Source: a virus (lineage: Duplodnaviria > Caudoviricetes). Taken from it: 53,846 nucleotides of DNA. The position numbers and the translations under genes are program-made. The notes beneath the pieces are model-generated. The model did no database searches. It had not been told where the DNA came from and saw nothing but the letters and a program-made list of their open reading frames with translations. This document shows, one piece after another, positions 8,235 through 24,879 of this stretch (within the stretch, counting starts at the first letter, position 1; each line of letters starts with the position of its first letter). Location: positions 1 to 53,846 of IMG/VR virus record IMGVR_UViG_3300025112_000016; one strand, given 5' to 3'.

Positions 8235-8244
8235 AGCTATCTCC

Positions 8245-10810: not shown

Positions 10811-10815
10811 AAGGA

Positions 10816-11392: not shown

Positions 11393-11403
11393 AGGATTTA
11401 ACT

Positions 11404-11694: not shown

Positions 11695-11850
11695 GACTGA
11701 ACGAGTGATTTATACAGATACCACAGAGGAATGACGATTAATAACAGACGAAGGCCCCCAGGGGAGGCAGACCTGACCAGACACGAAAAGCGAACCGGGG
11801 GAATACCAGCGAGGCAAAAAAGGTAAGTCCTCGCAGGAGGGAAAAATGCA

Positions 11851-11879
11851 GACCTGAGCAAGTCTACCCAAACTGCTCA
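11851..11879 (+). ncRNA. Compact H-type pseudoknot
   Basis: GAC-CTGAGCAA-GTC-TACCCAAAC-TGCTCA: GAC/GTC stem whose loop TGAGCA pairs with TGCTCA. Confidence 0.55.
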
Positions 11880-11892
11880 CTTTACGCTTCTC

Positions 11893-12366
11893 CGTCTCTA
11901 GAGACGATGAGTTAATGCCGACGGCCCAGTGAAGGGCCCAAGGATAGGCAGGAGAAGATTACGATTCTCGAAGAACCGAGGTGACCAAGAACGTACGGAA
12001 GCCACCCTCGACGATGTCCTGTGTGAGGACTCACACCGCGAGGAAAAGGCACGGCAACGAAGTTGGCATCGGTGAAGAGATAGACCAGGATGGGCACGAA
12101 GTAACAAGAACATCTGGTCGAGATAAGACCACCGAAGAGACCTCTCTCAAGGAGTCCTAGGAATCCGATACAGAGAGGTGTGGCACTTAGACTTCATCGG
12201 ACTGCGATGAATACTGCTTGAGGTCCCGCAGCTCGAGTCGCTGTCAGACCCGGACTTAGTGCGGACAATCCCAGCGATGCGCGGCCTCGAAACCGTTCCT
12301 TGAGCAAGGACAAAGAAGTGCTGGGGCTGACCTAGCATAAGACCTCCTGCCCTAACCCGGCAGGGG
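11893..12366 (+). ncRNA. Putative large multi-domain structured ncRNA
   Basis: Nested helices ATGCCGAC(11915)/GTTGGCAT(12062), TCGGTG/CACCGA, GACCAG/CTGGTC, ACCTCTCT/AGAGAGGT, GGCACTT(12182)/AAGTGCT(12316), TTCATCG/CGATGAA, TCGCTG/CAGCGA and TCCTT/AAGGA. No credible ORF. Confidence 0.65.
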
Positions 12367-12422
12367 GCACCTGAGGATTAACACTGATACTGAATCAAAG
12401 GCTACGGAGCGCCCTTCTGCGC

Positions 12423-12446
12423 CCGGGGGCCACCCTGGACTTTTTT
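12423..12446 (+). terminator. GC hairpin plus T6 terminator
   Basis: CCGGGG..CCCTGG then TTTTTT, at the end of the GC-rich unit. Confidence 0.5.
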
Positions 12447-12449
12447 GAA

Positions 12450-12742
12450 GTGCTGCAGCAGACGACCCGAGCATATGAGAAAATGCTCGAGCGCTTGCGC
12501 TACAGCGGTCCGCTGGAGAGAGAAAACGCTGTGCTGCAGCAGACTACCGCAGCATAAAAAAAAAGAGCTATAGCAAAGCGCTGCAGCGGTCTACGCCAGC
12601 GAGAGAAAAGAGCTCCAGCGCTATGCTGCAGCGGTCTGCCACAGCGAGAAAACTCGGCTCGAGCAAAGTGCTGCAGCGGTTCGCCGCAGTGAGAAAGAAG
12701 CGCTCGAGCAAAGCGCTGCAGCGGTTCGCTGGTGTGAGAAAA
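12450..12742. repeat. Degenerate ~45-bp tandem repeats with a GCTGCAGC core
   Basis: GCTGCAGC at 12452, 12533, 12580, 12625, 12670 and 12715, with a variant at 12499. Each unit is followed by GAGAAAA-like and GCTCGAGC-like blocks. Confidence 0.85.
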
Positions 12743-12751
12743 GCTTGCTGT

Positions 12752-12888
12752 AAGCTGATGCTTGCTGTAAGCTGACGCTCGATGCTCACGAGCTGACGCT
12801 GGGGCTGTCACAAGCTGACGCTGGAAAATTGGAAGCTCACGCTGGGGCTGTCAAAGCTCACGCTGGAAGCTCTCAAGCTCACGCTGGA
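12752..12888. repeat. 21-bp-phased iteron-like repeats AGCT(G/C)ACGCT(GG)
   Basis: Copies at 12770, 12791, 12813, 12834, 12855 and 12876. Confidence 0.85.
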
Positions 12889-12952
12889 TGAACCTAAACT
12901 TGCTGGTTCTAGTTTGCTGAACTGGTTTGGTGTGTGTGCTCGAAGAAAGAGC

Positions 12953-13026
12953 TATATTATTTCACATACTGCTGGTATATTATAATACGCTAAGTAATAG
13001 TATATGCTTAGTATATAGCATATGCT
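12953..13026. repeat. AT-rich palindromic element, copy 2
   Basis: Homologous to 8166-8234. Lies inside an AT-rich stretch that extends to about 13120. Confidence 0.7.
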
Positions 13027-13164
13027 ATAGTAAGAAGATACCCTAAGCATTGTTATGTATATAAGCACTTACTAAGCGCAGCTATAATATAGATATTAAT
13101 ATGCTTTACTTAACATATCTAAGCAGTGCCGCAATTTTTGTAGCAGTCTACCGTGTCAGTTGCT

Positions 13165-13250
13165 AATGCTTCCAGCTGGCATACCTTTATATACTCTGCT
13201 ATCCCTAAAAAATTACCCTCCAGCAAAAAAAATACAAATGCTGGATTGAA
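13165..13250 (+). promoter_or_regulatory. Duplicated promoter plus leader hairpin, copy 1
   Basis: AATGCTTCCAGCT...ACCTTTATATACTCTGCTA.CCCTAAAAA then TCCAGCA/TGCTGGA. Near-identical to 14836-14920. Confidence 0.75.
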
Positions 13251-13254
13251 ACAA

Positions 13255-13623
13255 ATGAGCGAAAAAACAATAGAGCTGGAAGACATCCAGAAGTTGCTGC
13301 AGTGGCAACAAAAGCTGGAAGGCAAGACACCAGTGCTCGGTCTAACCGACAATGATAGCCTTCTACAAGAAGCGCTGCAGGAACTGTCAGCATATTGGTT
13401 CCGTGAAGAGCAGGCGACTCACCCTGCTGCCGTTGAATTATTTACCCGGCAGTTATTTGATTCGCTGCGAACTATGGACCCAGCAAACAGGAACAACGTG
13501 CTTAACCGCATCCGCTTGGAAGGTGGTTATCAGAGCACAGGGACTGGTGGAATTATCGGAGCCAACCGCTACCATTCAGATAGAAGTAAAGCAGATGGCA
13601 GTTTGATACGCAGGAGAAGATAA
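13255..13623 (+). CDS. Hypothetical early protein (start MSEKTI)
   Basis: Start placed after the promoter/leader. Helical protein. Confidence 0.7.
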   Translation: MSEKTIELEDIQKLLQWQQKLEGKTPVLGLTDNDSLLQEALQELSAYWFREEQATHPAAVELFTRQLFDSLRTMDPANRNNVLNRIRLEGGYQSTGTGGIIGANRYHSDRSKADGSLIRRRR

Positions 13624-13788
13624 ATGCGCTGTGTAGATGAAAGCATATGTAAAAGAAGTGATAGGTATGGACACTGCTCGAAATGCGACAAGCCAATCCT
13701 GGTAGAAGAGCTATATGAATGCCAGCACTGTCGATGTGTGATATCGCTCGGTAAAGAGTGTATTAATTGCTATGGAGATGAAATATGA
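13624..13788 (+). CDS. 54-aa Cys-rich microprotein
   Basis: MRCVDESICKRSDRYGHCSKCDKPILVEELYECQHCRCVISLGKECINCYGDEI. Confidence 0.5.
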   Translation: MRCVDESICKRSDRYGHCSKCDKPILVEELYECQHCRCVISLGKECINCYGDEI

Positions 13789-13922
13789 AGCAAGAAAAGA
13801 AATGTAAGTTGCTGTGTGGCAAACCAGCATTAAAATGTTGGCAAGCTGCTGATATGTGTAAAGAGTGCTATAAAGTCCATCAAAGAGCAATGGATAATGT
13901 AATGAGCACAGGACACTTCTAA
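13785..13922 (+). CDS. 45-aa Zn-finger microprotein
   Basis: MKQEKKCKLLCGKPALKCWQAADMCKECYKVH..., with ATGA overlap. Confidence 0.5.
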   Translation: MKQEKKCKLLCGKPALKCWQAADMCKECYKVHQRAMDNVMSTGHF

Positions 13923-14032
13923 TGAGCTGGATAGAATTTATAAGATGGCAATGCTTAAATCAAATTGCTATAATGAAAAGGATGAAATAGCAATCATCAC
14001 AAAAATGCTAAAAATGAAAGGAGGCAAAGCAA

Positions 14033-14239
14033 ATGGACAACAAAGAGCTAGATTTGACACACAATGACAGCACACCTAATTTCCCCGCTATAAAAGATGC
14101 GTTGATAGCAATTCATTCAGATGGAGAGCAATTCGACTGTGGACTAGCGTGGCAAGGAGGCTGTGGAGCAGCAATGCATTCACCTGCTAATATGAAAGTG
14201 CTCAATGAAATCATCGAAGTGCTAGAAGGCTACTATTAA
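14033..14239 (+). CDS. Hypothetical protein
   Basis: 68-aa ORF with a GGAGG SD. Confidence 0.65.
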   Translation: MDNKELDLTHNDSTPNFPAIKDALIAIHSDGEQFDCGLAWQGGCGAAMHSPANMKVLNEIIEVLEGYY

Positions 14240-14306
14240 TGAAGCAATGGCACAACCTGAAAGCATATGTAAAAGAAGTGCTAGGTATGGATTTTTGGAA
14301 ACAGCA

Positions 14307-14423
14307 ATGATTAGAATACACTGCTCGAAATGCGACAAGCCAATCCTGGTAAAAAAGCTAAAAAAAGAACAGCTTTGTTACTACTGCTGGGATTCAGGGT
14401 CACGAGGTATTTACAGCAAATGA
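14307..14423 (+). CDS. 38-aa Zn-finger microprotein
   Basis: MIRIHCSKCDKPILVKKLKKEQLCYYCWDSGSRGIYSK. Confidence 0.5.
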   Translation: MIRIHCSKCDKPILVKKLKKEQLCYYCWDSGSRGIYSK

Positions 14424-14558
14424 TAAAAAACAGTGGAAAGGAATGGAGTGAGCGTCTCACCAATACAAATGCTCGTTTGTTTCGGGCTCGCTCTATTCCC
14501 CACAAATGCTCGGAGCAACCGAGTCTTTTTATACTTACAGCCCTTTATGGAGTCAACA

Positions 14559-14825
14559 ATGCTAATATGTGAAGAATGCAGCGATTTGCCCAACCATCCA
14601 CGTCCATTGAAACCTGTGTTTCAATATCAAACGCTGGCTATTGGGGAAGGTCGCTGGACTATGGTAACTGATAGAGCAATTAATGGTAGCATTCATTGTG
14701 CTACGTGTGGATTAGTATATGCTGATTCAAGTGATAAGAAGCTAACGGATAGAATGTTAAAGCTGTTGACCGATGCAAATGCTGATACTCTCGAAAGTGC
14801 TGCAGTGGAGGACGAAGATGCTTAA
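14559..14825 (+). CDS. Zn-ribbon protein with an acidic tail
   Basis: MLICEEC...HCATCG. GGAG SD precedes the chosen start. Confidence 0.6.
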   Translation: MLICEECSDLPNHPRPLKPVFQYQTLAIGEGRWTMVTDRAINGSIHCATCGLVYADSSDKKLTDRMLKLLTDANADTLESAAVEDEDA

Positions 14826-14835
14826 GCTGAGAACA

Positions 14836-14920
14836 AATGCTTCCAGCTTGCCAACCTTTATATACTCTGCTACCCCTAAAAATTTACTTCTCAGCGGATA
14901 TTTTACAACCGCTGGATTCA
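14836..14920 (+). promoter_or_regulatory. Duplicated promoter plus leader hairpin, copy 2
   Basis: TTTATATA at 14857 and hairpin CAGCGG/CCGCTG. Homologous to 13165-13250. Confidence 0.75.
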
Positions 14921-14932
14921 ACCAAAATAGCA

Positions 14933-16672
14933 ATGCCTGAAAACGTAGCAATCAAATGCGAACTGTGTGAAGGGGATGTCCCAGCCGGTGAAGAAATTCA
15001 CAGCACTTCAAAATATGAAGCCATCTGTGATATGTGCTATACTTCGATGTGGAGCTGTGATTATTGTAATGAATTAAAGCCTGACGATGCAGAGTGCTGG
15101 GAAGATATTGGCCGGAATAACGTTTGTCAAGGTTGCTATGAAGATAATAGCTTCTGTGATTGCTATGGATGTTCGCTGCTAATAAATACAGACCAACACG
15201 AGTATTTCGAAGCAAATGGAGACACGTGCTGTGATGGTTGTGCAGATAGCGTTGAAATGGACCAGTGCTGTAATTGTGGAACCGATGTTTATTTCAATGA
15301 AGTTTACAGCGACTGTTGGCAAGATTCTAGCCAATGTTATGATTGCTATAATACCTCAGAAGAGCACATATCAAGTAGAGTAACAACCGCTATCGACAAA
15401 GCAGATGTTACACTCGCTGACCATTATGTGTTAATGCGAGCAGCTAAAGCCAAACTAGCACAAAAATACCAGAGAGAGCTGTATTATTTTATGGACTGGT
15501 ATTATCGAGGCGATGCTGCACATTATAGTAACACTGATTTGTATTTAATCAAATCAGATAGAGGATTTGGAGCAGGATTTGGATTTCACGAGAGCGAAAT
15601 AAAAATAGCATCTCAGACCTTCCGCACATTTGCAGATTATCTCAAGGATATGATGCAGCGGGACCTGTTTATTGTAGAGCATAAGAAGTATGGGCTGTAT
15701 CACCCACTGCGTGACATTTTTAAGAGCTGTATTACCTATTATAATCGCTCAAAAGGCGGTCAAGTGCTAGGAAGTGACCTTCCATTAGAGCAGGTAGGTA
15801 AAAATTGGCTCGGTTGGTCGATAGAACAAATCAATGTGAATGCTGTGGTGCAGATGTTACAGATAAATAAGACCGATGATGGAGCAGATTTGAAGCGTGC
15901 TTTAACTACTGTGTTCAGTCGCTCGTATAAGAATAGAATACCAGCACAATATCCAGATGATTCACCGTTTATGATTACGCTGGGCAAATATAGAACCAAT
16001 GCTACTTGCACTACGCTACCTATAAAGATTGGATTCGACCCAATGCTGTTTCAACAGGTAGCAGAATTTAATGGTGCTGTAGGCAGTTGTCAATGTAAAA
16101 GCAATGCAGACAGTTACGGTCACGGATTTATGGACTTAGCAACTAATCCACATCTTTGGCTGTTAATTTATGATACTAGCGGTGAAAGACTGATAGGACG
16201 CTCGGTTCTTAAGTTTATGAAACCAGCAGATGACTGGGCAGATAAGCAAACCACGACCTACATAGCACCATCCAGGATTTATCTAAGCGATTATACCCAA
16301 GCAAAGGCAGAAGTATATGCTGCGGCATTTAGAGCAATAGATGATTGGGCAAAAAGCGTTTTTAAAGATTATAAGCTGGTAGGACACACCTATTCCCGGC
16401 ACGATACACCAACGCTGGACTATCTAAAGGGAGCACCCAATATTAAATTTAACGAATCAGAAAAAGCACTGTATACACAGTGGTGGATTCCATTTTGGCT
16501 GGATAAACCCTCCAGTGATGAAGCTAATTTCACATATTATCAAGATGAAGATGCCCGAGCACAAGTTACACACGCTCAGGGCAATGATTTAGGAGCAGAT
16601 TATGCTGCTCGGGAATATTTAAGAGCGAGCGCCTACAGGCTAGTGGAGGTAACACAAACAAATGAGCAATGA
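14933..16672 (+). CDS. Multi-Zn-finger protein with an uncharacterised C-terminal domain (GSCQ...IGRS...SRIY)
   Basis: Eight CxxC pairs in the first ~140 aa. Start MPENVA follows the leader. Confidence 0.75.
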   Translation: MPENVAIKCELCEGDVPAGEEIHSTSKYEAICDMCYTSMWSCDYCNELKPDDAECWEDIGRNNVCQGCYEDNSFCDCYGCSLLINTDQHEYFEANGDTCCDGCADSVEMDQCCNCGTDVYFNEVYSDCWQDSSQCYDCYNTSEEHISSRVTTAIDKADVTLADHYVLMRAAKAKLAQKYQRELYYFMDWYYRGDAAHYSNTDLYLIKSDRGFGAGFGFHESEIKIASQTFRTFADYLKDMMQRDLFIVEHKKYGLYHPLRDIFKSCITYYNRSKGGQVLGSDLPLEQVGKNWLGWSIEQINVNAVVQMLQINKTDDGADLKRALTTVFSRSYKNRIPAQYPDDSPFMITLGKYRTNATCTTLPIKIGFDPMLFQQVAEFNGAVGSCQCKSNADSYGHGFMDLATNPHLWLLIYDTSGERLIGRSVLKFMKPADDWADKQTTTYIAPSRIYLSDYTQAKAEVYAAAFRAIDDWAKSVFKDYKLVGHTYSRHDTPTLDYLKGAPNIKFNESEKALYTQWWIPFWLDKPSSDEANFTYYQDEDARAQVTHAQGNDLGADYAAREYLRASAYRLVEVTQTNEQ

Positions 16673-18086
16673 AGAAGAAAAGCTAGACGCAAACGCAGCG
16701 ATACTACCAGTCACTTCACCAGGTAAAGCACTTGCAAAGGTGGTTACAGCAGTGAAGGACAAAAAGGTAGCAGATGAGGAAAAAGAGCCAACAGTGATAC
16801 TCGAGCAAAGTCTTTTGACAAAAGTAGAAAAGAAAGTAGCAATAAATGACATAAAACTGCTGCGGGAAATGTTCTCAATCTATTCGCCATCGGGAGACGA
16901 GCACGCAATGGTAGCATATATTAGCAATTACCTCACAAGCAATGATATAGAGCACCAAATTGACTCTGCTGGAAACATATACTTTAAAAATCGTGTTGAA
17001 GGCAGCGATAGAATCATAATGAATGCTCATATGGACACCGTAGCAAATGCTGTGGCCGATGTGGGCGTTTACAAAAAAGATAGCGATATTATATTTAAGA
17101 GCAAAAACAATCAAGTGATTGGAGGTGACGATAAGTGTGGAGTATTTGCTGTCCTTAAGACGATTATGGACAGCGATATAAATGTTCCGCTAACAGGACT
17201 CCTGACAGTAGCTGAAGAATCAGGCTGTAATGGAGTGCGTCACGCTATGTCCAATCATATGGATTACTTTGCTGATTGTATCTTCTGGATTACAGTGGAT
17301 AGAAGAGGCAACAGCGAAATTATTACTGAAAACAGTGATTATCAACTTTGCTCTGATAAGGTAAAGGATATGCTAGTCGAATTAGGAGCAGATGATGGGT
17401 GGAAATCCGCAGCAGGGTCTATATCTGATGTGAGTGATGGCGTCGTAGCATTACAAATCAATGGAATCAATTTAGCAGCAGGTTATTACAACGCTCATAT
17501 GGGTAGCGAATATGTTTCGCTCAGTGATTTGAAGCGTTCTGTAGATTTCCTCAAGCAAACATTGATACCAAAGATGCATACCCATCTCAGCAATCACAAA
17601 GATGACATTACTTGGGAACCAACCAAAGCATATACAGCGTGGCGCAGCACTGCTTATGGTGGCATCCGCTATTATGGAGTAGATGATTACAGCTCTTATG
17701 ATGATAACTACACAAGTAAGAATGCTGTTACAGATTGGGATAGGCTGGGAAAAGTAGAAGATGCTCTATCCACAGTGCTGGAAGATATTGAAGCAATGGA
17801 AGGATATATTATGCTGGAAGAACTACTTGACAGCCCTACGGACTTAAGCAGTAGCGGAAAGTCCATTCGCTTGATGGGAGCCCATAAAAACTATGAACAG
17901 GAACTAGCATATATATGCCGTCACTTGGATGTTAGCATTGATGGAGACGATGCGCTAATTCTAATCGAATCAATTGAAAACTACGTCTTTTATGCTCACA
18001 CTGATAACAGCCATAGTAAGAAAAACGATGAATCACCACAGCATAATGCAGAGGGTGATGTGGTGGGCGACAACGGCTGGTATTAA
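16662..18086 (+). CDS. M20/M28-family Zn metallopeptidase
   Basis: SPSGDE, DSAGN, NAHMDTV, GGDDKCG, AEESG, VDRRG, SISD and YYNAH metal-ligand motifs. Confidence 0.9.
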   Translation: MSNEEEKLDANAAILPVTSPGKALAKVVTAVKDKKVADEEKEPTVILEQSLLTKVEKKVAINDIKLLREMFSIYSPSGDEHAMVAYISNYLTSNDIEHQIDSAGNIYFKNRVEGSDRIIMNAHMDTVANAVADVGVYKKDSDIIFKSKNNQVIGGDDKCGVFAVLKTIMDSDINVPLTGLLTVAEESGCNGVRHAMSNHMDYFADCIFWITVDRRGNSEIITENSDYQLCSDKVKDMLVELGADDGWKSAAGSISDVSDGVVALQINGINLAAGYYNAHMGSEYVSLSDLKRSVDFLKQTLIPKMHTHLSNHKDDITWEPTKAYTAWRSTAYGGIRYYGVDDYSSYDDNYTSKNAVTDWDRLGKVEDALSTVLEDIEAMEGYIMLEELLDSPTDLSSSGKSIRLMGAHKNYEQELAYICRHLDVSIDGDDALILIESIENYVFYAHTDNSHSKKNDESPQHNAEGDVVGDNGWY

Positions 18087-18197
18087 ATGAGCGAAGATGA
18101 TATATATATGAAGCAAAATGAATGTCCCTGCTGCAGTAAACAGCTAACAATGGGCTGCTGTATAGAATGTGGAGAGTGCTATGACCCAGAACCGTAA
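18087..18197 (+). CDS. 36-aa Cys-rich microprotein
   Basis: MSEDDIYMKQNECPCCSKQLTMGCCIECGECYDPEP. Confidence 0.5.
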   Translation: MSEDDIYMKQNECPCCSKQLTMGCCIECGECYDPEP

Positions 18198-18567
18198 AGA
18201 TAATGCTGGATTTGGAAAGAAGGAAGAGCAGGTAGGGAAACCTAAAGGAGCAAGCTACACATATCAGTGTCCTGACTGTGATGCTGAGAATTCATTGAGA
18301 CGCTATGGTGACGATAAAACGCAGCCAGTCCTGAATAAAATAGCAGGACTTAAGGGAGACGAAGCACTATTCTATAAATGTGCAGCTTGTCACGGAGAAT
18401 TCTTCGATGATGAGATAGTGCTCCATCCCTATAAGACTGGAGTGTTTACTAACGAAAAAGGAGAGCAGAAATATGTTCCATACACTAAAAATTTTATGCT
18501 AAAACGTAAGCGAAAGAAAGCATTGTCTTACCAGGATAGAAAATTGCTAAGGAGGTTGAAAAAGTAA
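18181..18567 (+). CDS. Zn-ribbon protein with a basic C-terminus
   Basis: CPDC...CAAC. GGAG SD before ATG 18181. Confidence 0.7.
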   Translation: MTQNRKDNAGFGKKEEQVGKPKGASYTYQCPDCDAENSLRRYGDDKTQPVLNKIAGLKGDEALFYKCAACHGEFFDDEIVLHPYKTGVFTNEKGEQKYVPYTKNFMLKRKRKKALSYQDRKLLRRLKK

Positions 18568-18575
18568 AGCGGATA

Positions 18576-18798
18576 GGTAGAGAGTTATGGACACAGGAGC
18601 TCAGGAAGATATGCTGGGGTGGTATCCAGCGGTCGTTTTGTTTGCATTACGACACTCCTATTCCCCTGAGTTGCTATGATTTCTATACAGTGCTGGCAAG
18701 GCGTAAACTAACGCCTCGGCACACCAGCTGTCTTGCGTCCACGGGTTCGCTCTGTTCCCGTAAAAAGACGGCTAGTTTGGGGCCATTGGCTCTCTACC
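18576..18798 (+). ncRNA. Putative ~225-nt pseudoknotted ncRNA
   Basis: Closing stem GGTAGAGAGTTATGG/CCATTGGCTCTCTACC. Internal helices AGCTCAGG/CCTGAGTT, GCTGG/CCAGC, GTCGT/ACGAC, GTGCTG/CGGCAC, AGGCGT/ACGCCT, AGCTGTCTT/AAGACGGCT and ACGGG/CCCGT. Loop AAACTA pairs with TAGTTT. Confidence 0.7.
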
Positions 18799-18821
18799 CC
18801 GTAAATTACAATAGCAGGATT

Positions 18822-18899
18822 CCTCTCGTAGTGTAGTCCGGTCCATCATCCAGCCTTCTTGGGGCTGGGACACTGGTTCAAATCCAGTCGAGAGGGCCA
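18822..18899 (+). tRNA. tRNA with anticodon CUU (nominally Lys), atypical body, encoded CCA
   Basis: CCTCTCG/CGAGAGG acceptor, GTGT..TCAT D arm, CAGCC-TTCTTGG-GGCTG anticodon arm, ACTGG-TTCAAAT-CCAGT T arm, G73, CCA. Confidence 0.88.
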
Positions 18900-18921
18900 C
18901 CTGCTTCAATAAAGATTAACA

Positions 18922-19788
18922 ATGGAAATAATAGTATTTAACGCTGGCGCAAATAGTTTATTTGGAGCGGGTCGAATTGCTGATGATATCAAAGAACAGT
19001 GGACAAACGCCCACGTTACATCAAGCGAAGACGGAGAGCCAATGCTAACACCCAATTTCTGGGCTATGCTGTATTGGAGAGATAACCACCCTGTTGTTTT
19101 TAGAACAGTGGGTCGGTATGATGCTAGTAAGAGAGGTGATTTGACGGTTGCTTTGAATGGCGTGTTAAAGCTATGTGAAGAAGGAAGCATTACAGGAGAT
19201 GTAGTGCTGTATCGTTCTACCTGTAATAGGTTCCACATAGCAGAAAAATATCCCATATCAAATAACGGAACTTATGCTATCTTTACTGGAATGCCTGCTT
19301 GGATTCTATCAGCGAATCCAACTTGGAGAGAGCACGACGAGGAGGATGGCTGGATGTATGACCCTGATTATGATAAGTTTCAGAGTCAATTCCCAGCCTT
19401 TCAACAACTCCAACCTCCCCAAATAGCCGCTGGATTTGGTTCACGGAGTAGAGCTCGAAGATTACACCCAGCAAATTTACAAAGATATAACGCTCAAGTA
19501 GAGCAACTCAATTTAAGAATAGCATATATATGGGGAATGCTAACAGTTAACGAGCGTAATGGTCTCTTTGAGCAATTTCAATGGGAGACTATTATGGAAA
19601 CATTCACAGAACCTCAACGAGCAGGATTATTACTGTGGAAAGAAGGAAAGGTGAGGTTGTGGTGGAATTGGGCTGCAGGAATGCCCAATGTCAGCCATTG
19701 GATGGGCGTAACTCCAAGAGCTTCAGATTTTGAAGGAGCTGGATTAAGAATAGATGATAGCGGGAGGTTCGTAGAAGCAAATGATTAA
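18922..19788 (+). CDS. Hypothetical protein; N-terminal half resembles an inactive class II glutamine amidotransferase
   Basis: MEIIVF / PNFWAMLYW..VVFR / LYRST / YPI / FTG follow the spacing of MC.I / N.DG.G / HxRxAT / HPF / HNG. Confidence 0.5.
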   Translation: MEIIVFNAGANSLFGAGRIADDIKEQWTNAHVTSSEDGEPMLTPNFWAMLYWRDNHPVVFRTVGRYDASKRGDLTVALNGVLKLCEEGSITGDVVLYRSTCNRFHIAEKYPISNNGTYAIFTGMPAWILSANPTWREHDEEDGWMYDPDYDKFQSQFPAFQQLQPPQIAAGFGSRSRARRLHPANLQRYNAQVEQLNLRIAYIWGMLTVNERNGLFEQFQWETIMETFTEPQRAGLLLWKEGKVRLWWNWAAGMPNVSHWMGVTPRASDFEGAGLRIDDSGRFVEAND

Positions 19789-19892
19789 ATATAGCCCCCC
19801 TATAACTTTAAAGGTAGAGAGTAGTTTAAAGCGATTAAACGTCCTAGGCAGCGATTTTTCCTACTGCTCTCTGCCACCTGAGAGGTATAAGT

Positions 19893-20243
19893 ATGGATAA
19901 AAGCAAAAAAATGATGGAGCGTCTTTGGGCAGAAATGCTGGCCGATTTCTTTGGCAACGATATGTTCTTTGACGCTATGGAAGAGAGACTTGCTCAAAGG
20001 ACTCTCCCTGATGAGCGAACAAAACCCCTCTTCAAGCAATTTCACTCCAAAGAGAGAATTGTGGGTGAAGCATTGACCCCTGTGGGTGCAAGCAGTTTCA
20101 GTATAGCACCGATTCTGTATGATGAAACGAAAATAAACCCTGCTGAAGATGAAGAAGACAAAGCACACAGGAAAGAAATGCATAAGAAAATGGAAGAAAT
20201 GAGCGAAGAGGAGATAAATGAGCACAAAGAAGAAAAAGACTAA
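19893..20243 (+). CDS. Hypothetical acidic protein
   Basis: GAGGT SD. TATA-like ACTTTAAAG near 19805. Confidence 0.7.
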   Translation: MDKSKKMMERLWAEMLADFFGNDMFFDAMEERLAQRTLPDERTKPLFKQFHSKERIVGEALTPVGASSFSIAPILYDETKINPAEDEEDKAHRKEMHKKMEEMSEEEINEHKEEKD

Positions 20244-20409
20244 AGAAGAAATGCTAGATTATATTTGTCAAACTGACAAAAAGCTGAATGATGATGAGGA
20301 GCTAATCAATCAGATTGAATACGGATTATATGCTATAATGGCTGATGCCAATATGTTAATGAGAATGCTAGATAAACTCAGAGCGCAGAACAGGGAGAAC
20401 GATAAATGA
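20218..20409 (+). CDS. Hypothetical helical protein
   Basis: GAGGAG SD and overlapping operon arrangement. Confidence 0.6.
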   Translation: MSTKKKKTKEEMLDYICQTDKKLNDDEELINQIEYGLYAIMADANMLMRMLDKLRAQNRENDK

Positions 20410-20606
20410 GCTGTATAGGATGTGGAGCGTATTGGGATGAAGATTGCAATTGTGGACCGGTTCATCGCTGTGGTGGATGTATGAATTACGAAGAAGATTG
20501 TGCTTGTGTGTGTGAAAATTGTGGGCTATGTCCTACATATCATAGCAACCGAAGGAAATGCGTGGACCCTCACGCTTGTATGAAAGCATTGGCGGTAGCA
20601 GTATGA
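20406..20606 (+). CDS. Metallothionein-like protein (13 Cys in 66 aa)
   Basis: Internal repeat CIGCGAYWDEDCNC / CGGCMNYEEDCAC. Confidence 0.6.
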   Translation: MSCIGCGAYWDEDCNCGPVHRCGGCMNYEEDCACVCENCGLCPTYHSNRRKCVDPHACMKALAVAV

Positions 20607-20752
20607 GAAGAAGGCATTTGAGAGGTGAAGGTCCTAAAACGCTATGTGGACACACAATGACTGTGCAGGAGAGAAGGCACGTGCATAAGAACACAATACA
20701 CAATATTACCTGTAAAAATTGTATGAAACGCTGGGTCAACAGAGAACTATGA
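20603..20752 (+). CDS. H...TLCG...CxxC Zn-finger microprotein
   Basis: MRRRHLRGEGPKTLCG...ITCKNC, with ATGA overlap. Confidence 0.55.
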   Translation: MRRRHLRGEGPKTLCGHTMTVQERRHVHKNTIHNITCKNCMKRWVNREL

Positions 20753-20925
20753 GCGGATTCCTAAAAGAAGCTGCCACTAAGTCTACCCTTTCCAGGAGAT
20801 GCTTTCTTTGTCATAAGAAGCTAATTGACCATATGCAGGTTTATTGCGAGCAGTGTTTGTGGAAACATCACGGAAGTAGAAATTGGTATGCTAAAGATAA
20901 ATATGAAGATGGTAGCAAAAAATGA
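20749..20925 (+). CDS. Zn-finger microprotein
   Basis: CFLC...CEQC, with ATGA overlap. Confidence 0.55.
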   Translation: MSGFLKEAATKSTLSRRCFLCHKKLIDHMQVYCEQCLWKHHGSRNWYAKDKYEDGSKK

Positions 20926-21125
20926 GTAGAATAACAGATGGCTATGAGAATGGAGACCTCAGCAGTATCGGACCATCCAAGAATAAAGGTGGTTACGACA
21001 AATGGAACTGGTGCTCTAAATGCACGAGCATTTGGGACAAAATCCATTGGAGATGCCGACAGTGTGGAAATAAACTGAGAGCCAAAGGGCGCTATGCAAG
21101 CAGACGAGAGAGAGAAAGTAGATGA
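20922..21125 (+). CDS. Zn-ribbon protein, paralog of 23067-23297
   Basis: YENG..GP..YD.WNWCxxC..RCxxC..LR.K.R. Confidence 0.7.
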   Translation: MSRITDGYENGDLSSIGPSKNKGGYDKWNWCSKCTSIWDKIHWRCRQCGNKLRAKGRYASRRERESR

Positions 21126-21856
21126 CAAAAAAGAGAGTAACTAAAGAGCCCTACGAAGGGTATACGCTGCCTAAGTGTGCTGAGAAAGGTCAGTCATTTA
21201 TAGACTTTAATCAAGTGCTAAAGGAAATAATACCCAAGCGAAGAATAATAAAGAAAAAGCGGAGAAAAAATGAAAACTAAGCAAAAAATCGTAAGTTACT
21301 GCAAAGAAAAATGCACAGGAAAGAATATGGAATGTCCAGCGTGTAAAACGCTGAGAGATATGTTCACATTTAAGCTATGAAAGAGAAAAAGTGCATACTA
21401 TGTGGAGAAATAGCTACTCCCTACGGTGGATTAATGAAGATAGCAGGTGATGTGGTGCATATGGAATGTGCGCTACGTTGGACTAGAGAAAAAAGCGGAT
21501 TACGATATATCAAGAAACCAATGAAGCAGTGGAGTAGTTATAATGATGATGAATAAGTGGAGCGACATAGGAGAGTTAAGTCCAGAGGATTTGGAGCTCA
21601 TCGAGATTGCTAATGCTGTCAATGAGAAACTTGACCCTTACTATATGCTATCTTTAGTTAAAGTGGGTAATGAGGAAATGGTTAATCAATGAGCTGGACC
21701 GAGATTTTAAATACTTGCAGTGGTTGGGATTATATGAACGGTGTAGGATTATTCCGCTGTGGAGAATGTGGTGCTATCAATTATCGTGGTAAACTATGTT
21801 ACGACTGCTGGGCAGAATTTTGTAATACCGATACAATAAAGGAAATGATAGAATGA
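21122..21856 (+). other. Run of five overlapping micro-ORFs (21122-21280, 21270-21380, 21377-21556, 21543-21692, 21689-21856)
   Basis: Hand translation, e.g. MKEKKCILCGE..GGLMKIAGDVVHMECA and FRCGECGAINYRGKLCYDC. Start/stop overlaps throughout. Confidence 0.55.
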
Positions 21857-22158
21857 AAATTAAACGAGAACTTAAGTATGCTACTTTTGAGTATGACGAA
21901 GATGAGAAAACTATATTGATTGAGACACGAACCACCAGCGATGCGTTTAAGAATATAGCTAGTGCAAGTGGTGAGTTTGACTTACCGCGCCCTATCAATG
22001 GACGTATTAAATTAAATAAAGTGTATAGTTTTGCATTGCTAAGATTTGTTATAAGAATCGCTCAGAGAAATTGGTTCAGGAAAGTAAAGAAAGCAATAAA
22101 CAACGACTTAGAGTGTGACGAAGATGGACACGAAGATATTAAAGCGTTTAATTCGTAA
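21853..22158 (+). CDS. Hypothetical protein
   Basis: 101-aa ORF with ATGA overlap. Confidence 0.6.
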   Translation: MKIKRELKYATFEYDEDEKTILIETRTTSDAFKNIASASGEFDLPRPINGRIKLNKVYSFALLRFVIRIAQRNWFRKVKKAINNDLECDEDGHEDIKAFNS

Positions 22159-22490
22159 GAAATACGGAAAGTATAGACCAAACGCTGCGGAGATACTTAA
22201 AATAATAGAAGATAATAACCTACGCCCCAAGCGAAGGAGGAAAAAGAAATGAAAAGAAATAAAGCAGATATGAATGGAATGACAGCATTGGAAAGATTGA
22301 ATTATCTTTCAGCAATCACAGGACTAATGTGTTTGAGAGATTACAGAGATTGGGAAGAAACACTATGCCCGTGCCCGGAGTGTAAATGAAGTGCTTAGAT
22401 TGTGGAATGAACTACCTTGGAATGAAGAAGGCCAACAAATACAACTGTCCCCGATGTAGTGTTAAAGATAGGGATAGCGGAGAAGTATAG
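22124..22490 (+). other. Three micro-ORFs (basic 22124-22252; CPCPEC 22249-22389; CLDC..CPRC 22386-22490)
   Basis: Hand translation, with ATGA overlaps. Confidence 0.5.
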
Positions 22491-22491
22491 T

Positions 22492-22686
22492 ATGACCCGT
22501 AATTGTCCGAAATGTAAACAAACAGCCAAATTAGATAAGGGTGATTTAAAGATGGATATATTACAGCACTACTATTGTGGTGATTGTATGATATGGACAG
22601 AAGATAGACATACTAGCATTTGGACTGACGGAGTAGATGAATTTAAAAGCAATGGGAGAAAGCACCATACGAGGTTGTGTAGATGA
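22492..22686 (+). CDS. Zn-ribbon microprotein
   Basis: MTRNCPKC...YCGDC. Confidence 0.55.
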   Translation: MTRNCPKCKQTAKLDKGDLKMDILQHYYCGDCMIWTEDRHTSIWTDGVDEFKSNGRKHHTRLCR

Positions 22687-22886
22687 AAACCTACAAAGTT
22701 AAGCTGCACGAAGAGGACGTAGAGCGTCTGTGTATGCTGAAGATGGAAATGCAGCAAGATGATGGTAATGATGACGCTGATATGATATGTGATATATTCC
22801 AGCAAATTGAGAATCAGCGATTTGAGGAGTTGTCTCACAAATGGAAAAAAATGGAAAGCACAAATCCAGAATACAGGTTAGAATAA
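22683..22886 (+). CDS. Hypothetical protein
   Basis: 67-aa ORF with ATGA overlap. Confidence 0.55.
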   Translation: MKTYKVKLHEEDVERLCMLKMEMQQDDGNDDADMICDIFQQIENQRFEELSHKWKKMESTNPEYRLE

Positions 22887-23074
22887 TGGTAATGAATGAA
22901 GAGCAGGTGAGAGACCAATGCGTTTTACTCGCTGAAGAATGTTATAGGTTATGGAGCGAGATTGAGAGATTGAAAAAGGTAACTCAACACCAAGCAGATG
23001 AAATTTGTAAATTAGAATGGAGTGCTGCTATGGAGAGAAGAACTGCAAAGGCGGTGAAGCTGATAAATGAATAA
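22886..23074 (+). CDS. Coiled-coil hypothetical protein
   Basis: MVMNEEQVRDQC..., with TAATG coupling. Confidence 0.55.
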   Translation: MVMNEEQVRDQCVLLAEECYRLWSEIERLKKVTQHQADEICKLEWSAAMERRTAKAVKLINE

Positions 23075-23297
23075 GACATACGAGAATGGAATGATATGCG
23101 AATGTGGTCCCCCAATGAGAGCCGGAGCTTATGATAACTGGAACTGGTGTGCTCCCTGTAGACGCATTTATGATAAAGACCATAAACGATGTCCTCGCTG
23201 CAATCAAAGTTTACGCTGGAAATCCAGGGGAAATAGCAAATGGGGACGAGACAAGCGAACGGGCCAATGGAGCCCAACAAAAAAGGTAATAATATGA
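23067..23297 (+). CDS. Zn-ribbon protein, paralog of 20922-21125
   Basis: YENG..GP..YDNWNWCAPC..RCPRC..LRWKSR. Confidence 0.7.
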   Translation: MNKTYENGMICECGPPMRAGAYDNWNWCAPCRRIYDKDHKRCPRCNQSLRWKSRGNSKWGRDKRTGQWSPTKKVII

Positions 23298-23662
23298 GTA
23301 AACACGAAAGACTGGAAGAAGAAATAAGACGGCTAGAATTCGAAGCAGAAGTATTGAAAGACTGTGTATGCAATCTCTTCGAATTGAATAATGGAGAATA
23401 TAGTTTAAGCGATATGGATGGAGCACTAGAATATTGGAGACAGTATTTTGAAACCTGCGGTATTGGAGATGCTATCCATCGGGAAGAATCCCAGCCGTGG
23501 AGAAAGAAGAAAGAGCAGATAGAACTGATACAGGGTGATGAATATAAGAAATACTGGACTTGTAAAGTATGTGGTAAAGATACGTCCAAAGTAGATTATG
23601 ATTACTTGGTAGCACATAACTTGCATTTAGAGTGCGTATTAAAGAAGGAGATGAAGAAATGA
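23294..23662 (+). CDS. Hypothetical protein with a C-terminal CxxC..HxxC finger
   Basis: Start MSKHER after AAGGT. CKVC...HLEC. Confidence 0.6.
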   Translation: MSKHERLEEEIRRLEFEAEVLKDCVCNLFELNNGEYSLSDMDGALEYWRQYFETCGIGDAIHREESQPWRKKKEQIELIQGDEYKKYWTCKVCGKDTSKVDYDYLVAHNLHLECVLKKEMKK

Positions 23663-23895
23663 GCGCAATAAATGTAACAATCCGAATACCTACAGAACCT
23701 GAGTTTTGGCTGTTTTTGGCAGGACTCCTTATGTTTTGTATGTGGCTGGTGATGAATGACTAATTATTTTACTGACAAAGCTAAACAAGAATATGAGAAA
23801 CGCAAAAAGAGAGATATGACTTCTGCGGACTGGTGTATGCTCGTAAGCCTCTTTATAATCATCTGGATATTGATGATACTGAGGTATTGGAATAA

Positions 23896-24879
23896 TTGAC
23901 AAGCGTTGAAATACTTTTAGGTGATGCACTCAGCAGAGTGAAAACATTAGCCGAAGGAAGTATTCAAACAGTTGTTACATCACCACCGTATTGGGGATTA
24001 AGAGATTATGGCACCGCTAGTTGGGAAGGCGGTGATAGCACTTGCGAACATTCTATTTCGATGCCTTCGAAGTGGACAGATAAAAAACGGAGAGCAGACC
24101 GCCCCGAAGTCGCTAACCGTGGGGGAGACAATAGCAAGTGCCACAAATGTGGAGCCCTCCGCATAGATGAACAAATTGGATTAGAGTCATCACCAGAGAA
24201 ATATATTAGCAATCTCGTCCAGTTATTTGATGAGATTAAACGAATTTTAGCAGACGATGGAACCGTCTGGATTAACATAGGGGACAGCTATGTTGGTCAG
24301 TCGTGGTCAGGCAAAGGAAATGTAGGCAGCGATAAGAAAGGAAGAAGGGGAGCAGGTCATAAGAAGCAAGGGAAAGGATTGAAACCCAAAGACCTGGTAG
24401 GCATTCCGTGGATGCTCGCTTTCGCAATGAGAGAAGCGGGGTGGTATCTAAGAAGCGATATCATCTGGGCCAAGCCAAATCCTATTCCAGAACCTGTGAG
24501 AGACAGACCCACCAGAGCACACGAATACATTTTTTTATTTTCAAAAAACCGCAAATATTACTACGATTACGAAGCAGTAAAAGAAAAAACGGTGGACGGG
24601 TTGGGGCTGAGAAATGCCCGAGATGTATGGTTTATAACACCTCGTCAGCATCGTGGGGAACACATTGCAGTGTTTCCTTTTGAGTTACCTGAGAGATGTA
24701 TATTAGCTGCTACGCGCGTAGGAGACACCGTATTGGACCCCTTTGTAGGAAGTGGCACTGTCTGTGAAGTAGCTAAGAGATTAAATAGAAACAGCGTTGG
24801 CATAGAATTAAACGAGCGATATTTTAATATAGCAGCGAAGTTAATGAAGATTACTACATTGGAGGACTTCAGTGGCTAA
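23896..24879 (+). CDS. DNA N4-cytosine/N6-adenine methyltransferase (beta class)
   Basis: Catalytic TSPPY precedes the SAM motif DPFVGSGT. Also IIWAKPNP and HEYIFLFSK. Confidence 0.93.
   Translation: MTSVEILLGDALSRVKTLAEGSIQTVVTSPPYWGLRDYGTASWEGGDSTCEHSISMPSKWTDKKRRADRPEVANRGGDNSKCHKCGALRIDEQIGLESSPEKYISNLVQLFDEIKRILADDGTVWINIGDSYVGQSWSGKGNVGSDKKGRRGAGHKKQGKGLKPKDLVGIPWMLAFAMREAGWYLRSDIIWAKPNPIPEPVRDRPTRAHEYIFLFSKNRKYYYDYEAVKEKTVDGLGLRNARDVWFITPRQHRGEHIAVFPFELPERCILAATRVGDTVLDPFVGSGTVCEVAKRLNRNSVGIELNERYFNIAAKLMKITTLEDFSG

What the first reader, a model, noticed from the sequence alone, without database searches (positions are those of the whole stretch)
18576..18798. Fully folded ~225-nt pseudoknotted RNA 23 nt upstream of the tRNA
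Seen: 15-bp closing stem, three internal arms, and loop AAACTA (18705) complementary to TAGTTT (18773). Known: phage tRNA regions host tRNA-linked RNAs (GOLLD, HDV-like theta ribozymes), but this matches none that I recognise. Inference: a new tRNA-associated ncRNA or ribozyme, whose 3' end could be released by RNase P cleavage of the tRNA.
Basis: partly seen in the sequence, partly recalled or inferred. Interest (0 to 1): 0.78.

Follow-up and report, generated by a model that had tools for sequence, protein, structure and literature searches.

The report
Virus-encoded circular RNA cut at BHB
The folded RNA next to the tRNA gene is real and occurs in seawater RNA samples as a 230-base circle joined exactly where an archaeal splicing enzyme would cut, so this "phage" probably infects archaea and has host enzymes make circular RNAs for it.

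Summary
Window 18576-18798 folds far better than shuffles (z -4.6) and matches no Rfam family.

- **Biogenesis:** The closing stem sits on a canonical archaeal bulge-helix-bulge (BHB) motif: outer helix GUAA/UUAC, 4-bp helix GCGG/CCGU, and 3-nt bulges AUA and AAA on opposite strands.
- **RNA evidence:** Contigs from two metatranscriptomes of different studies join 18804 back to 18575, after the second base of each bulge. Two DNA runs lack this joint. This implies a 230-nt circular RNA made by splicing endonuclease (EndA) and ligase (RtcB); the enzymes are inferred.
- **Family:** It is the largest member of a co-oriented intergenic family: 9 further elements with full BHB geometry, one of them at window 14433-14506, and 3 degenerate ones. 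Stems covary (15 of 18 pairs) and apical parts vary from about 30 to 190 nt.
- **Host:** The neighbouring tRNA(CUU) has an archaeal D-arm (80 of 80 listed genome hits are archaeal) and is closest to marine Thermoplasmatota tRNA-Glu. Those genomes encode EndA; the virus does not.

The ribozyme and RNase P ideas are not supported. The circle's function is unknown. Four literature searches found no BHB circular RNA from an archaeal virus.

The parts
18169..18567 (+). Upstream gene for a 132-aa Zn-ribbon protein. Its stop codon UAA (18565-67) lies in the outer BHB helix.
   Evidence: ORF list. Weak Pfam Zn_ribbon_16 hit. Four homologue clusters. Synteny with the element in 9 of 10 metagenome loci.
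18564..18567 (+). Outer helix h, 5' strand (GUAA). It pairs with UUAC at 18806-09. A18568 is left unpaired in this window; in the short-form relatives the helix abuts H directly.
   Evidence: MFE of the precursor 18556-18899 predicts it. 4 bp in L091/L093/L096.
18569..18572 (+). Central 4-bp BHB helix H, 5' strand (GCGG). It pairs with CCGU at 18799-18802.
   Evidence: All 4 pairs covary across 14 aligned elements.
18573..18575 (+). Bulge B1 (AUA). The inferred 5' cut is after 18574.
   Evidence: The RNA-contig joint begins at 18575, with a one-letter ambiguity. The bulge is AAA or AUA in all canonical members.
18575..18804 (+). The 230-nt RNA found circularly permuted in RNA libraries (the circular RNA).
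   Evidence: Joint '18804 to 18575, goes back 230' in X18 record 12 (225 nt) and X19 record 13 (190 nt), which come from two studies. It is absent from DNA runs X14 and X17.
18576..18590 (+). It pairs with 18783-18798.
   Evidence: In the family alignment 11 of 14 pairs have changes on both sides, and a U-G wobble is conserved in 13 of 14.
18592..18678 (+). Arm A: a stem enclosing hairpins GCUGGG..CCAGC and GUCGU..ACGAC, followed by ACUCCUAUUCC. The module is shared with the apical parts of L082 and L227.
18690..18722 (+). Arm B, with loop AAACUA at 18705-10.
   Evidence: Variants A18705G and U18716A; U18716A breaks the A18699-U18716 pair.
18723..18776 (+). Arm C.
   Evidence: The G18770A change, which I read from a loose end of X19 (table 7), turns G-U18729 into A-U.
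18783..18798 (+). Inner helix h', pyrimidine-rich 3' strand.
18799..18802 (+). Central helix H', 3' strand (CCGU).
18803..18805 (+). Bulge B2 (AAA). The inferred 3' cut is after 18804.
   Evidence: The joint ends at 18804. AAA is found in all canonical members.
18806..18809 (+). Outer helix h, 3' strand (UUAC).
18822..18899 (+). tRNA with anticodon CUU and an archaeal tRNA-Glu-like body; CCA is encoded.
   Evidence: ARAGORN. Rfam 49.2 bits. D-arm pattern found only in archaeal records among 80 listed. Closest to a marine group III tRNA-Glu.
14433..14506 (+). Second canonical BHB element of the same family: GUGG/CCAC helix, AAA bulges, 14-bp inner helix, predicted circle 14439..14505 (67 nt). 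A hairpin plus U5 follows it.
   Evidence: R1 25.4 bits. R2 60.7 bits. Geometry. Fold z -4.78. No RNA data for this copy.
19803..19901 (+). Degenerate relative. It has the same inner-helix sequence (GGUAGAGAGUAG..) and an AAA bulge but no central helix H', so no BHB cut is predicted here.
   Evidence: R2 54.5 bits. Alignment rows. It lies in the second-longest difference-free stretch against L090.

Best explanation
**What it is.** The element is a virus-encoded cassette, bounded by an archaeal bulge-helix-bulge (BHB) motif, that yields a 230-nt circular RNA. It is probably transcribed on the + strand together with the upstream Zn-ribbon gene and the downstream tRNA(CUU).

**How the circle is made.**
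1. The base of the fold forms helix GUAA/UUAC, a 3-nt bulge, the 4-bp helix GCGG/CCGU, a second 3-nt bulge, and the 15-bp inner stem.
2. The host splicing endonuclease EndA cuts after the second base of each bulge, at 18574|18575 and 18804|18805.
3. An RtcB-type ligase joins the two ends of the excised piece into a circle, 18575..18804. It may also rejoin the flanks.

**Shown and inferred.**
- Shown: the motif, its covariation in a family of related elements, and the circular junction at exactly these positions in RNA libraries of two studies.
- Inferred: the enzymes, the archaeal host, co-transcription, and exon ligation.

**Function.** This is the weakest step. My leaning is about 50:50. Either the highly structured circle, invariant between two strains here, is itself a stable functional non-coding RNA in this lineage, or it is a by-product.
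For: 1. **Circular junction.** RNA contigs from two metatranscriptomes of different studies consist only of circle sequence and cross the same joint, 18804 to 18575. X18 record 12 is 225 nt (122+103) and X19 record 13 is 190 nt (62+128). There is one ambiguous letter and no loose ends at the joint. DNA runs X14 and X17 read straight through with no joint.
2. **Position of the joint.** The joint falls after base 2 of each 3-nt bulge of a motif with a 4-bp central helix. That is the geometry in PMC4090602 (passage read: a 4-bp helix flanked by two 3-nt bulges, with the first two anticodon bases in the central helix and the intron one base 3' of the anticodon) and in PMC10485636 (passage). By my own reading, the same layout appears in an intron-bearing Thermoplasmata tRNA-Glu (L122) compared with the intron-less L166 (sequences).
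3. **Predicted independently.** The MFE of the precursor 18556-18899 predicts the whole motif.
4. **Family and covariation.** Covariance models found 14 elements in the window, in 5 other virus records and in 3 metagenome loci. In the alignment 98.8% of cells pair. 15 of 18 pairs change on both sides, against 9.3 +/- 1.3 in shuffles (0 of 500 reach it). Sliding the partners gives 36-60% paired. All 4 central-helix pairs covary. The bulges are AAA or AUA, and AAA.
5. **Conservation.** Against L090, whose flanks are about 96% identical, there is no difference across 470 nt (18523-18991) spanning the element and the tRNA. Roughly 13-17 differences are expected in 338 nt.
6. **Archaeal context.** The tRNA D-arm pattern hit 120 stretches in genomes of 185,579 species, and all 80 listed titles are archaeal. 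The closest are marine group III and Poseidoniia tRNA-Glu. The EndA domain is present in 3 of 3 such genomes and RtcB in 2 of 3. Neither is in the virus records G000 or G001. Among 14 control genomes EndA rings only in the 4 archaea. The best annotated TerL hit is a haloarchaeal tailed virus (25% identity).
Against: - **Contigs, not reads.** The RNA evidence comes from assembled contigs at low depth (4.7 and 14). They cannot show the strand, the level or the ends of an RNA. A tandem or template-switch product would look the same.
- **Geometry alone is not significant.** A generic scan (4-bp helix, any 3-nt bulges, at least 10-bp inner and 2-bp outer helix) finds 2 sites on the + strand and 6 on the - strand of the window. 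Thirty random sequences give a mean of 2.8.
- **Biased covariation count.** The counts come from alignments fitted to the model by the same covariance model that found the sequences, which favours pairing.
- **Weak outer helix.** In this window it is only 2 bp if the bulge is kept pure, or 4 bp with an extra unpaired A.
- **Host not demonstrated.** R2 found nothing in 5 candidate host genomes, no archaeal hallmark protein turned up in Pfam or NCBIfam scans of 40 ORFs, and TerL similarity to an archaeal virus is weak.
- **No spliced flank.** No exon-exon joint (18574^18805) was seen, and no RNA data exist for any other family member.
- **Internal arms unsupported.** There is no comparative support for the three arms. 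All full-length copies found are identical, and only three variant positions are known. One of them breaks a pair.
Confidence: 0.8

Rival explanations
1. The biogenesis is the same (BHB, EndA, ligase), but the circle is a by-product. On this view the elements are either RNA 'punctuation' or intron-like selfish insertions. Punctuation would cut long viral transcripts into separate mRNAs and tRNA precursors in a host that lacks RNase III and RNase E. Selfish insertions would be tolerated because splicing removes them.
For: - Only the BHB and the inner helix are conserved across the family. Apical parts range from about 32 to 194 nt with little shared sequence.
- Elements lie between co-oriented genes, and several end just before a GGAG-like run and the next start codon (G001 6049, G008).
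- One element precedes a hairpin plus U5.
- Degenerate copies exist.
- Gene neighbours differ between relatives, as expected for shuffled or mobile cassettes.
Against: - The 230-nt version is invariant between strains whose flanking genes differ by about 4%.
- The inner helix keeps sequence features EndA should not need: AGU/GCU with a U-G wobble in 13 of 14.
- A UUUGUUU motif recurs in 5 of 12 apical parts (1 of 300 shuffles reaches this).
- RNA contigs of two studies stop at the circle's limits, which is only a weak hint that the circle is the species that persists.
Confidence: 0.4
2. The circular junction is an artefact of reverse-transcriptase template switching across the base of a very stable stem, or of assembly. 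The element would then be a linear conserved stem-loop that regulates or processes RNA.
For: The evidence is contigs only, at depth 4.7 and 14. Strong stems bring the two sites together, which favours template switching. Both contigs are shorter than 230 nt.
Against: - The same joint appears in two studies with different library types.
- Only one shared letter lies at the joint, so no repeat drives it.
- The joint sits at the symmetric positions of two 3-nt bulges rather than at the stem end.
- Both contigs are wholly circle sequence, and DNA runs lack the joint.
Confidence: 0.07
3. This is a bacteriophage RNA linked to the tRNA: a ribozyme or a linear non-coding RNA, trimmed by RNase P or RNase III.
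For: It lies next to a tRNA. The stem of about 19 bp could suit RNase III. TerL and portal place the virus among tailed viruses.
Against: - No ribozyme or other Rfam family matched at E <= 10.
- The RNA ends lie 17 nt from the tRNA and are joined to each other.
- The tRNA is of archaeal type.
- Family members occur away from tRNAs.
- EndA was not found in any of the bacterial control genomes.
Confidence: 0.04
4. A different archaeal ligase (Rnl3/Pab1020-type) circularises a linear transcript without EndA, as proposed for some archaeal circular RNAs that lack a BHB.
For: PMC12558985 (passages read) reports archaeal circular RNAs without BHB motifs and cites such ligases.
Against: The ends coincide with canonical BHB cut sites, and the BHB covaries across the family.
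Confidence: 0.05

Closest known systems
Archaeal BHB introns excised as circles (for example the tRNA-Trp intron that carries a C/D box sRNA)
   Same: The 4-bp helix between two 3-nt bulges, the cuts inside the bulges, the circular excised product, and free variation of the internal sequence (PMC4090602 and PMC12558985, passages read).
   Different: - It lies in an intergenic spacer of a virus, not inside a tRNA gene.
- At 230 nt it is longer than the 11-129 nt range quoted for tRNA introns.
- I saw no C/D boxes by eye, and the Rfam snoRNA hits at E 2-3 are chance level.
- It has a conserved 12-17-bp inner helix with its own sequence signature.
Archaeal rRNA processing stems (circular pre-16S and pre-23S intermediates)
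   Same: A long processing stem built from flanking inverted repeats carries a BHB. EndA and RtcB give a circular RNA (PMC12918454 and PMC12558985, passages read).
   Different: The enclosed RNA is a small unknown RNA, not an rRNA. It is virus-encoded and present in several copies per genome.
BHB introns in archaeal mRNAs (cbf5, HVO_1309)
   Same: EndA substrates outside tRNA and rRNA (PMC10485636 passage; PMC2738675 seen in the search listing only).
   Different: Those interrupt reading frames. Here the upstream stop codon precedes the 5' cut, so no frame is restored.
RNase III processing hairpins between phage T7 genes (recalled, not tested here)
   Same: Repeated, co-oriented intergenic stem-loops in a viral polycistronic transcript that use a host endonuclease.
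   Different: A different enzyme, motif and host domain. T7 sites give linear products.
   Same: The position beside a viral tRNA gene.
   Different: No Rfam match at E <= 10. The ends are defined by a BHB, and nothing points to self-cleavage.

Membership tests
Archaeal bulge-helix-bulge (hBHBh') splicing-endonuclease substrate | Central helix of exactly 4 base pairs | tested here: met
   GCGG (18569-72) pairs with CCGU (18799-802). All 4 pairs covary across 14 aligned elements. 11 of the 14 rows (10 distinct elements) have a full 4-bp helix and 3 are degenerate.
Archaeal bulge-helix-bulge (hBHBh') splicing-endonuclease substrate | Two 3-nt bulges on opposite strands, each 3' of the central-helix strand | tested here: met
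   AUA at 18573-75 and AAA at 18803-05. The polarity matches the tRNA-intron layout deduced from the PMC4090602 passage and from L122 against L166 (my reading).
Archaeal bulge-helix-bulge (hBHBh') splicing-endonuclease substrate | Flanking helices h and h' on both sides | tested here: inconclusive
   The inner helix is 15 bp. The outer helix is GUAA/UUAC (4 bp) with an extra unpaired A18568, or 2 bp if strictly adjacent. It is a clean 4 bp in the short forms and 1-4 bp in other members.
Archaeal bulge-helix-bulge (hBHBh') splicing-endonuclease substrate | Cuts at symmetric positions in the two bulges, and an excised piece recovered as a circle | tested here: met
   Joint 18804 to 18575 in RNA contigs of two studies, with a one-letter ambiguity that is symmetric. 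This is contig-level evidence only.
Archaeal bulge-helix-bulge (hBHBh') splicing-endonuclease substrate | Cleavage depends on EndA and ligation on RtcB | not testable with these tools
   Only presence was tested. The EndA domain is in 3 of 3 and RtcB in 2 of 3 candidate host-clade genomes, and both are absent from virus records G000 and G001.
Archaeal bulge-helix-bulge (hBHBh') splicing-endonuclease substrate | Ligation of the flanking 'exons' | not tested
   No contig joins 18574 to 18805. The laid RNA contigs do not cover the flanks, which proves nothing either way.
Any Rfam 15 family (ribozymes, GOLLD, tmRNA, Y RNA, snoRNA-like and the rest) | Score at or above the family's gathering threshold | tested here: not met
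   Only the tRNA passes. With E <= 10 on 18400-19000, only SNORD105 (15.4 bits against 45) and snR67 (14.7 against 55) appear.
Permuted or split tRNA matured through a circle | A tRNA is recognisable when the excised piece is read as a circle | tested here: not met
   ARAGORN with circular topology finds none. Spurious calls with introns of more than 170 nt appear on the other strand only at relaxed settings.

The most novel reading that the evidence does not exclude
Tailed viruses of uncultured marine archaea encode a family of small genes whose products are made only by hijacking the host's tRNA-splicing machinery. These products are stable, protein-free circular RNAs of about 67-230 nt with a conserved rod-like base and variable heads, and they act during infection as decoys, sponges or regulators. 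The invariant 230-nt three-armed circle would be the most elaborate member. As far as my four searches show, this would be the first circular non-coding RNA class encoded by a virus of prokaryotes. It would also give a sequence signature that assigns uncultured viruses to archaeal hosts.
Probability: 0.35. Interest if true: 0.92.

Novelty: new variant of a known kind. Interest (0 to 1): 0.85.

Why it matters
- **New source of a known RNA type.** BHB cutting and circularisation are known for archaeal tRNA introns, rRNA precursors and a couple of mRNAs. I found no report of them for a viral RNA.
- **A second kind of host dependence.** If confirmed, an archaeal virus relies on host EndA and RtcB to make (or to remove) RNAs. 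This would be an archaeal counterpart of phage T7's use of host RNase III.
- **Host-domain marker.** A conserved BHB cassette together with an archaeal-type tRNA gives a sequence-only marker of host domain for a group of uncultured marine viruses.
- **Testable candidate.** The 230-nt circle is abundant enough to assemble from two metatranscriptomes, which makes it a concrete candidate for a functional viral circular RNA.
- **Possible tool.** Natural BHB cassettes are already used to produce circular RNA in cells (bioRxiv 10.64898/2026.10.12.758436, abstract seen in the listing).

Tried and rejected
- **Cultured relatives:** blastn of 18540-18920 against 50,697 phage records gave no match.
- **Neighbour proteins as bait in IMG/VR:** the 132-aa, 288-aa and 474-aa proteins found no relatives.
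- **tRNA D-arm patterns in IMG/VR:** 3 and 4 stretches matched. One of them (L098) has a different tRNA but led to a family member.
- **MAFFT of six upstream regions:** the alignment was meaningless because of the 190-nt size difference, so I used covariance models instead.
- **Strict motif scan of the window:** only the two canonical copies have an inner helix of 12 bp or more. The 8-bp hits are at chance level (shuffles give 0-5).
- **Generic BHB scan:** not above random.
- **Pattern GTGGAWAGG..CCCCACAAAT in IMG/VR:** one hit (L228), whose stem does not pair and which R2 does not match. I treat it as chance.
- **R2 in 5 candidate host genomes:** no match, which shows nothing.
- **Sigma-70 promoter and terminator scan of 8000-24000:** promoters at chance level, and not informative for an archaeal virus.
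- **C/D box or H/ACA reading of the circle:** by eye there is a CUGA and an AUGAUU but no C box at the right spacing, so I rejected it.
- **30-aa ORF at 18587-18679 inside the circle:** not present in the short forms, so I did not pursue it.
- **Virus-encoded enzymes:** Pfam, PHROGs and NCBIfam on 40 ORFs found no EndA, RtcB or other RNA ligase.
- **RNA cover of the flanks:** none in the two laid runs.
- **Papers' supplementary files:** not consulted.

Full report
**1. The observation**

The window is a 53.8-kb IMG/VR virus record with a single tRNA, anticodon CUU, at 18822-18899. The 254-nt spacer between the stop of a 132-aa Zn-ribbon ORF (18169-18567) and the tRNA holds no convincing ORF.

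- **Fold.** Positions 18576-18798 fold to -90.7 kcal/mol. Dinucleotide shuffles give -69.1 +/- 4.7 (z -4.6; 0 of 200 as good). The fold has a 15-pair closing stem and three arms.
- **Strand.** The complement folds equally well (z -5.3).
- **Known families.** Rfam 15 finds only the tRNA at gathering thresholds. At E <= 10 over 18400-19000 it adds only two chance-level snoRNA hits.
- **Pseudoknot.** The 6-nt complementarity between AAACUA and UAGUUU is real. Its 3' partner is partly paired in the MFE, and such a match is not very rare by chance (3.2% of 2000 shuffles).

**2. Relatives show a conserved base and a variable head**

- **Failed routes.** No cultured phage matches. Neighbour proteins found nothing in IMG/VR.
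- **TerL route.** The large terminase found 110 related stretches. Two long records (G001, G004) keep the tRNA at about 82% identity but not the upstream sequence.
- **Zn-ribbon route.** The Zn-ribbon protein has four homologue clusters. An alignment of them retrieved 10 metagenome loci.
  - Three loci carry the RNA and tRNA with 100% identity over 338 nt. One of them, L090, is only about 96% identical in the flanking genes. Between L090 and the window the longest difference-free run is 470 nt (18523-18991), where roughly 13-17 differences are expected per 338 nt.
  - Six loci, whose protein is about 56% identical, have only about 120 nt between the gene and the tRNA. They keep both ends of the element. 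The same outer 4-bp pairing, 3-nt bulge and 14-bp stem are present with compensatory changes, around a 60-nt interior.

**3. A family of elements**

A covariance model built from the short forms (R1) found a second copy in the window at 14430-14518. It also found copies upstream of the tRNA in G001 and G004, one just after a different tRNA in L098, and a weaker one at window 19803-19901.

A second model (R2) was built from these 8 sequences.
- It matched 3 of 5 long records and 3 of 19 further related records.
- Run again over the window and 9 loci, it listed 14 elements, including the finding itself (18566-18819, 30.6 bits).
- On that alignment 98.8% of cells pair. 15 of 18 pairs change on both sides, against 9.3 +/- 1.3 in column shuffles (0 of 500 reach it). 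Sliding the partners by 1-3 columns leaves 36-60% paired.
- The alignment was fitted to the model, so these numbers lean towards the structure.

The shared parts are these:
- a 4-bp helix (GYGG-like with CCRY-like);
- a 5' bulge AAA or AUA;
- a purine-rich and pyrimidine-rich inner helix of 10-17 bp, with a conserved AGU/GCU that includes a U-G wobble in 13 of 14;
- a 3' AAA.

The interiors range from about 32 to 194 nt. A UUUGUUU motif occurs in 5 of 12 non-redundant interiors (1 of 300 shuffles). A GCUGGG..CCCAGC hairpin followed by ACUCCU-like sequence is shared by the finding's arm A, L082 and L227.

**4. The RNA is found as a circle, joined at BHB positions**

Twenty public runs hold part of 18400-19000, and three of them are RNA libraries. 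I laid two RNA runs (X18 and X19, from different studies) and two DNA runs on 18200-19200.
- The DNA contigs read through the locus linearly.
- Each RNA run has a contig made only of element sequence that crosses one joint, 18804 back to 18575. X18 record 12 is 225 nt (122+103). X19 record 13 is 190 nt (62+128).
- One letter at the joint is ambiguous, and there are no loose ends there.
- X19 also holds a 94%-identical variant contig inside the element.

In the fold, 18573-75 (AUA) and 18803-05 (AAA) are two 3-nt bulges on opposite strands. They are separated by the 4-bp helix GCGG/CCGU. The 15-bp stem lies inside and GUAA/UUAC outside. The MFE of the precursor predicts all of this unaided. The joint is after base 2 of both bulges (or after base 3 of both, given the ambiguity).

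This is the archaeal bulge-helix-bulge motif.
[quoted passage not shown] The first two anticodon bases sit in the central helix and the intron lies one base 3' of the anticodon (passages). That places each cut after the second bulge base and each bulge 3' of its central-helix strand, as here.
- PMC10485636 gives the same definition (passage).
- I see the same layout in an intron-bearing Thermoplasmata tRNA-Glu (L122) when it is compared with an intron-less one (L166). The sequences are and the comparison is my own reading.
- EndA cutting followed by RtcB ligation, giving circles, is described for archaeal rRNA and tRNA introns (PMC12558985 and PMC12918454, passages).

**5. The host is probably an archaeon**

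- **tRNA type.** The tRNA's D-arm pattern matched 120 stretches in one genome per 185,579 prokaryote species. All 80 listed records are archaeal by title. They are mostly tRNA-Glu: ARAGORN called 34 UUC, 25 CUC, 3 Asp and 3 intron-bearing.
- **Closest tRNAs.** A marine group III tRNA-Glu and a Poseidoniia tRNA-Glu match 57-62 of 78 bases. The first 29 bases are identical to the short-form relatives' tRNA.
- **Enzymes.** The EndA catalytic domain is present in 3 of 3 such genomes and RtcB in 2 of 3. Neither is in the virus records G000 and G001, and G001 is rated complete. Among 14 control genomes EndA rings only in the 4 archaea.
- **Terminase.** The best annotated relative is a haloarchaeal tailed virus, but at only 25% identity.
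- **What is missing.** No archaeal hallmark protein was found among 40 ORFs scanned.

**6. What is shown and what is inferred**

Shown:
- the fold;
- the conserved, covarying BHB-plus-stem family;
- a circularly permuted RNA contig with the same junction in two studies, at canonical BHB positions;
- an archaeal-type tRNA next to it.

Inferred:
- EndA and RtcB as the enzymes;
- the + strand, from G-U pairs, BHB polarity and gene direction (contigs do not give a strand);
- co-transcription with the neighbours;
- ligation of the flanks.

Weak points:
- contig-level evidence at low depth;
- generic BHB geometry is not rarer than chance (2 and 6 sites against a mean of 2.8 in 30 random sequences);
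- the outer helix is weak in this copy;
- there is no RNA evidence for other members;
- there is no comparative support for arms A-C. Only A18705G (in a loop), U18716A (breaks A18699-U) and G18770A (turns G-U into A-U) are known.

**7. Function**

Two readings remain open.

(a) *The circle is the product.* This reading is favoured by several observations:
- it is invariant where flanking genes vary;
- it carries sequence features beyond what EndA needs;

(b) *The BHB cassettes are punctuation or intron-like insertions, and the circle is a by-product.* The highly variable interiors, the degenerate copies, and the positions just upstream of ribosome-binding-like sequences and start codons favour this.

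I put the biogenesis at about 0.8 and split function roughly evenly.

**8. Novelty**

The mechanism is known. The setting is new: virus-encoded, intergenic, multi-copy, with a conserved inner helix. Four full-text searches returned no report of a BHB-derived or any circular RNA from an archaeal virus:
- 'bulge-helix-bulge' + virus + 'circular RNA' + archaea;
- 'archaeal virus' + BHB + intron;
- 'archaeal viruses' + 'splicing endonuclease' + circular;
- circRNA + 'archaeal virus'.

A paper on Poseidoniales viruses mentions no introns or non-coding RNAs (term search). The library lacks most subscription journals, and I did not see supplements.

Noticed in passing
window 18822-18899; L091, L093, L096, L082, L083: The viral tRNA keeps a CUU (Lys) anticodon in all six relatives. 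Its acceptor stem and D-arm are those of archaeal tRNA-Glu; in L091 the first 29 bases are identical to a marine group III tRNA-Glu. Two relatives have G instead of U at position 33. Which amino acid it carries is an open question.
   Followed up: partly
window 14433-14530: A second canonical BHB element (predicted 67-nt circle 14439..14505) lies directly after a 38-aa CxxC..CxxC ORF. A GC hairpin plus U5 follows it. The region folds with z -4.78.
   Followed up: partly
window 19676-19952: The second-longest stretch without differences between the window and L090 (276 nt) covers the degenerate element at 19803-19901 and the start of the next gene. Non-coding spacers here are more conserved than the genes.
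   Followed up: no
L103 2608-2734 (G001 7156-7282) and L227 207-324: Two degenerate members in different virus records share an interior stretch (GCGACAAUCCUCUGUA) and the same GGUAGGUAGU inner helix. This suggests a sub-family that has lost the full 4-bp helix.
   Followed up: no
window 13600-19800; L082, L083, L098: The region is dense in small Cys-rich (CxxC) ORFs. In G001 and G004 a Cys-rich protein of more than 460 aa follows the tRNA. None has a family assignment.
   Followed up: no
window 36499-45766: A run of sugar-modification genes: at least four glycosyltransferase-like proteins, an FkbM methyltransferase, a formyltransferase, an NAD epimerase/dehydratase, a DegT aminotransferase and a UDP-glucose dehydrogenase-like protein. 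This resembles glycosylation modules reported for other marine archaeal viruses (PMC11706807 passages).
   Followed up: no
window 18587-18679: A 30-aa ATG ORF lies wholly inside the circle. It is absent from the short-form relatives, so it is probably not coding.
   Followed up: no
apical parts of 12 family members: UUUGUUU or GUUUGUU occurs in 5 of 12 interiors (1 of 300 shuffles reaches this), and CUCCU in 6 of 12. CUCCU resembles the 3' end of 16S rRNA; that resemblance is recalled, not tested.
   Followed up: partly
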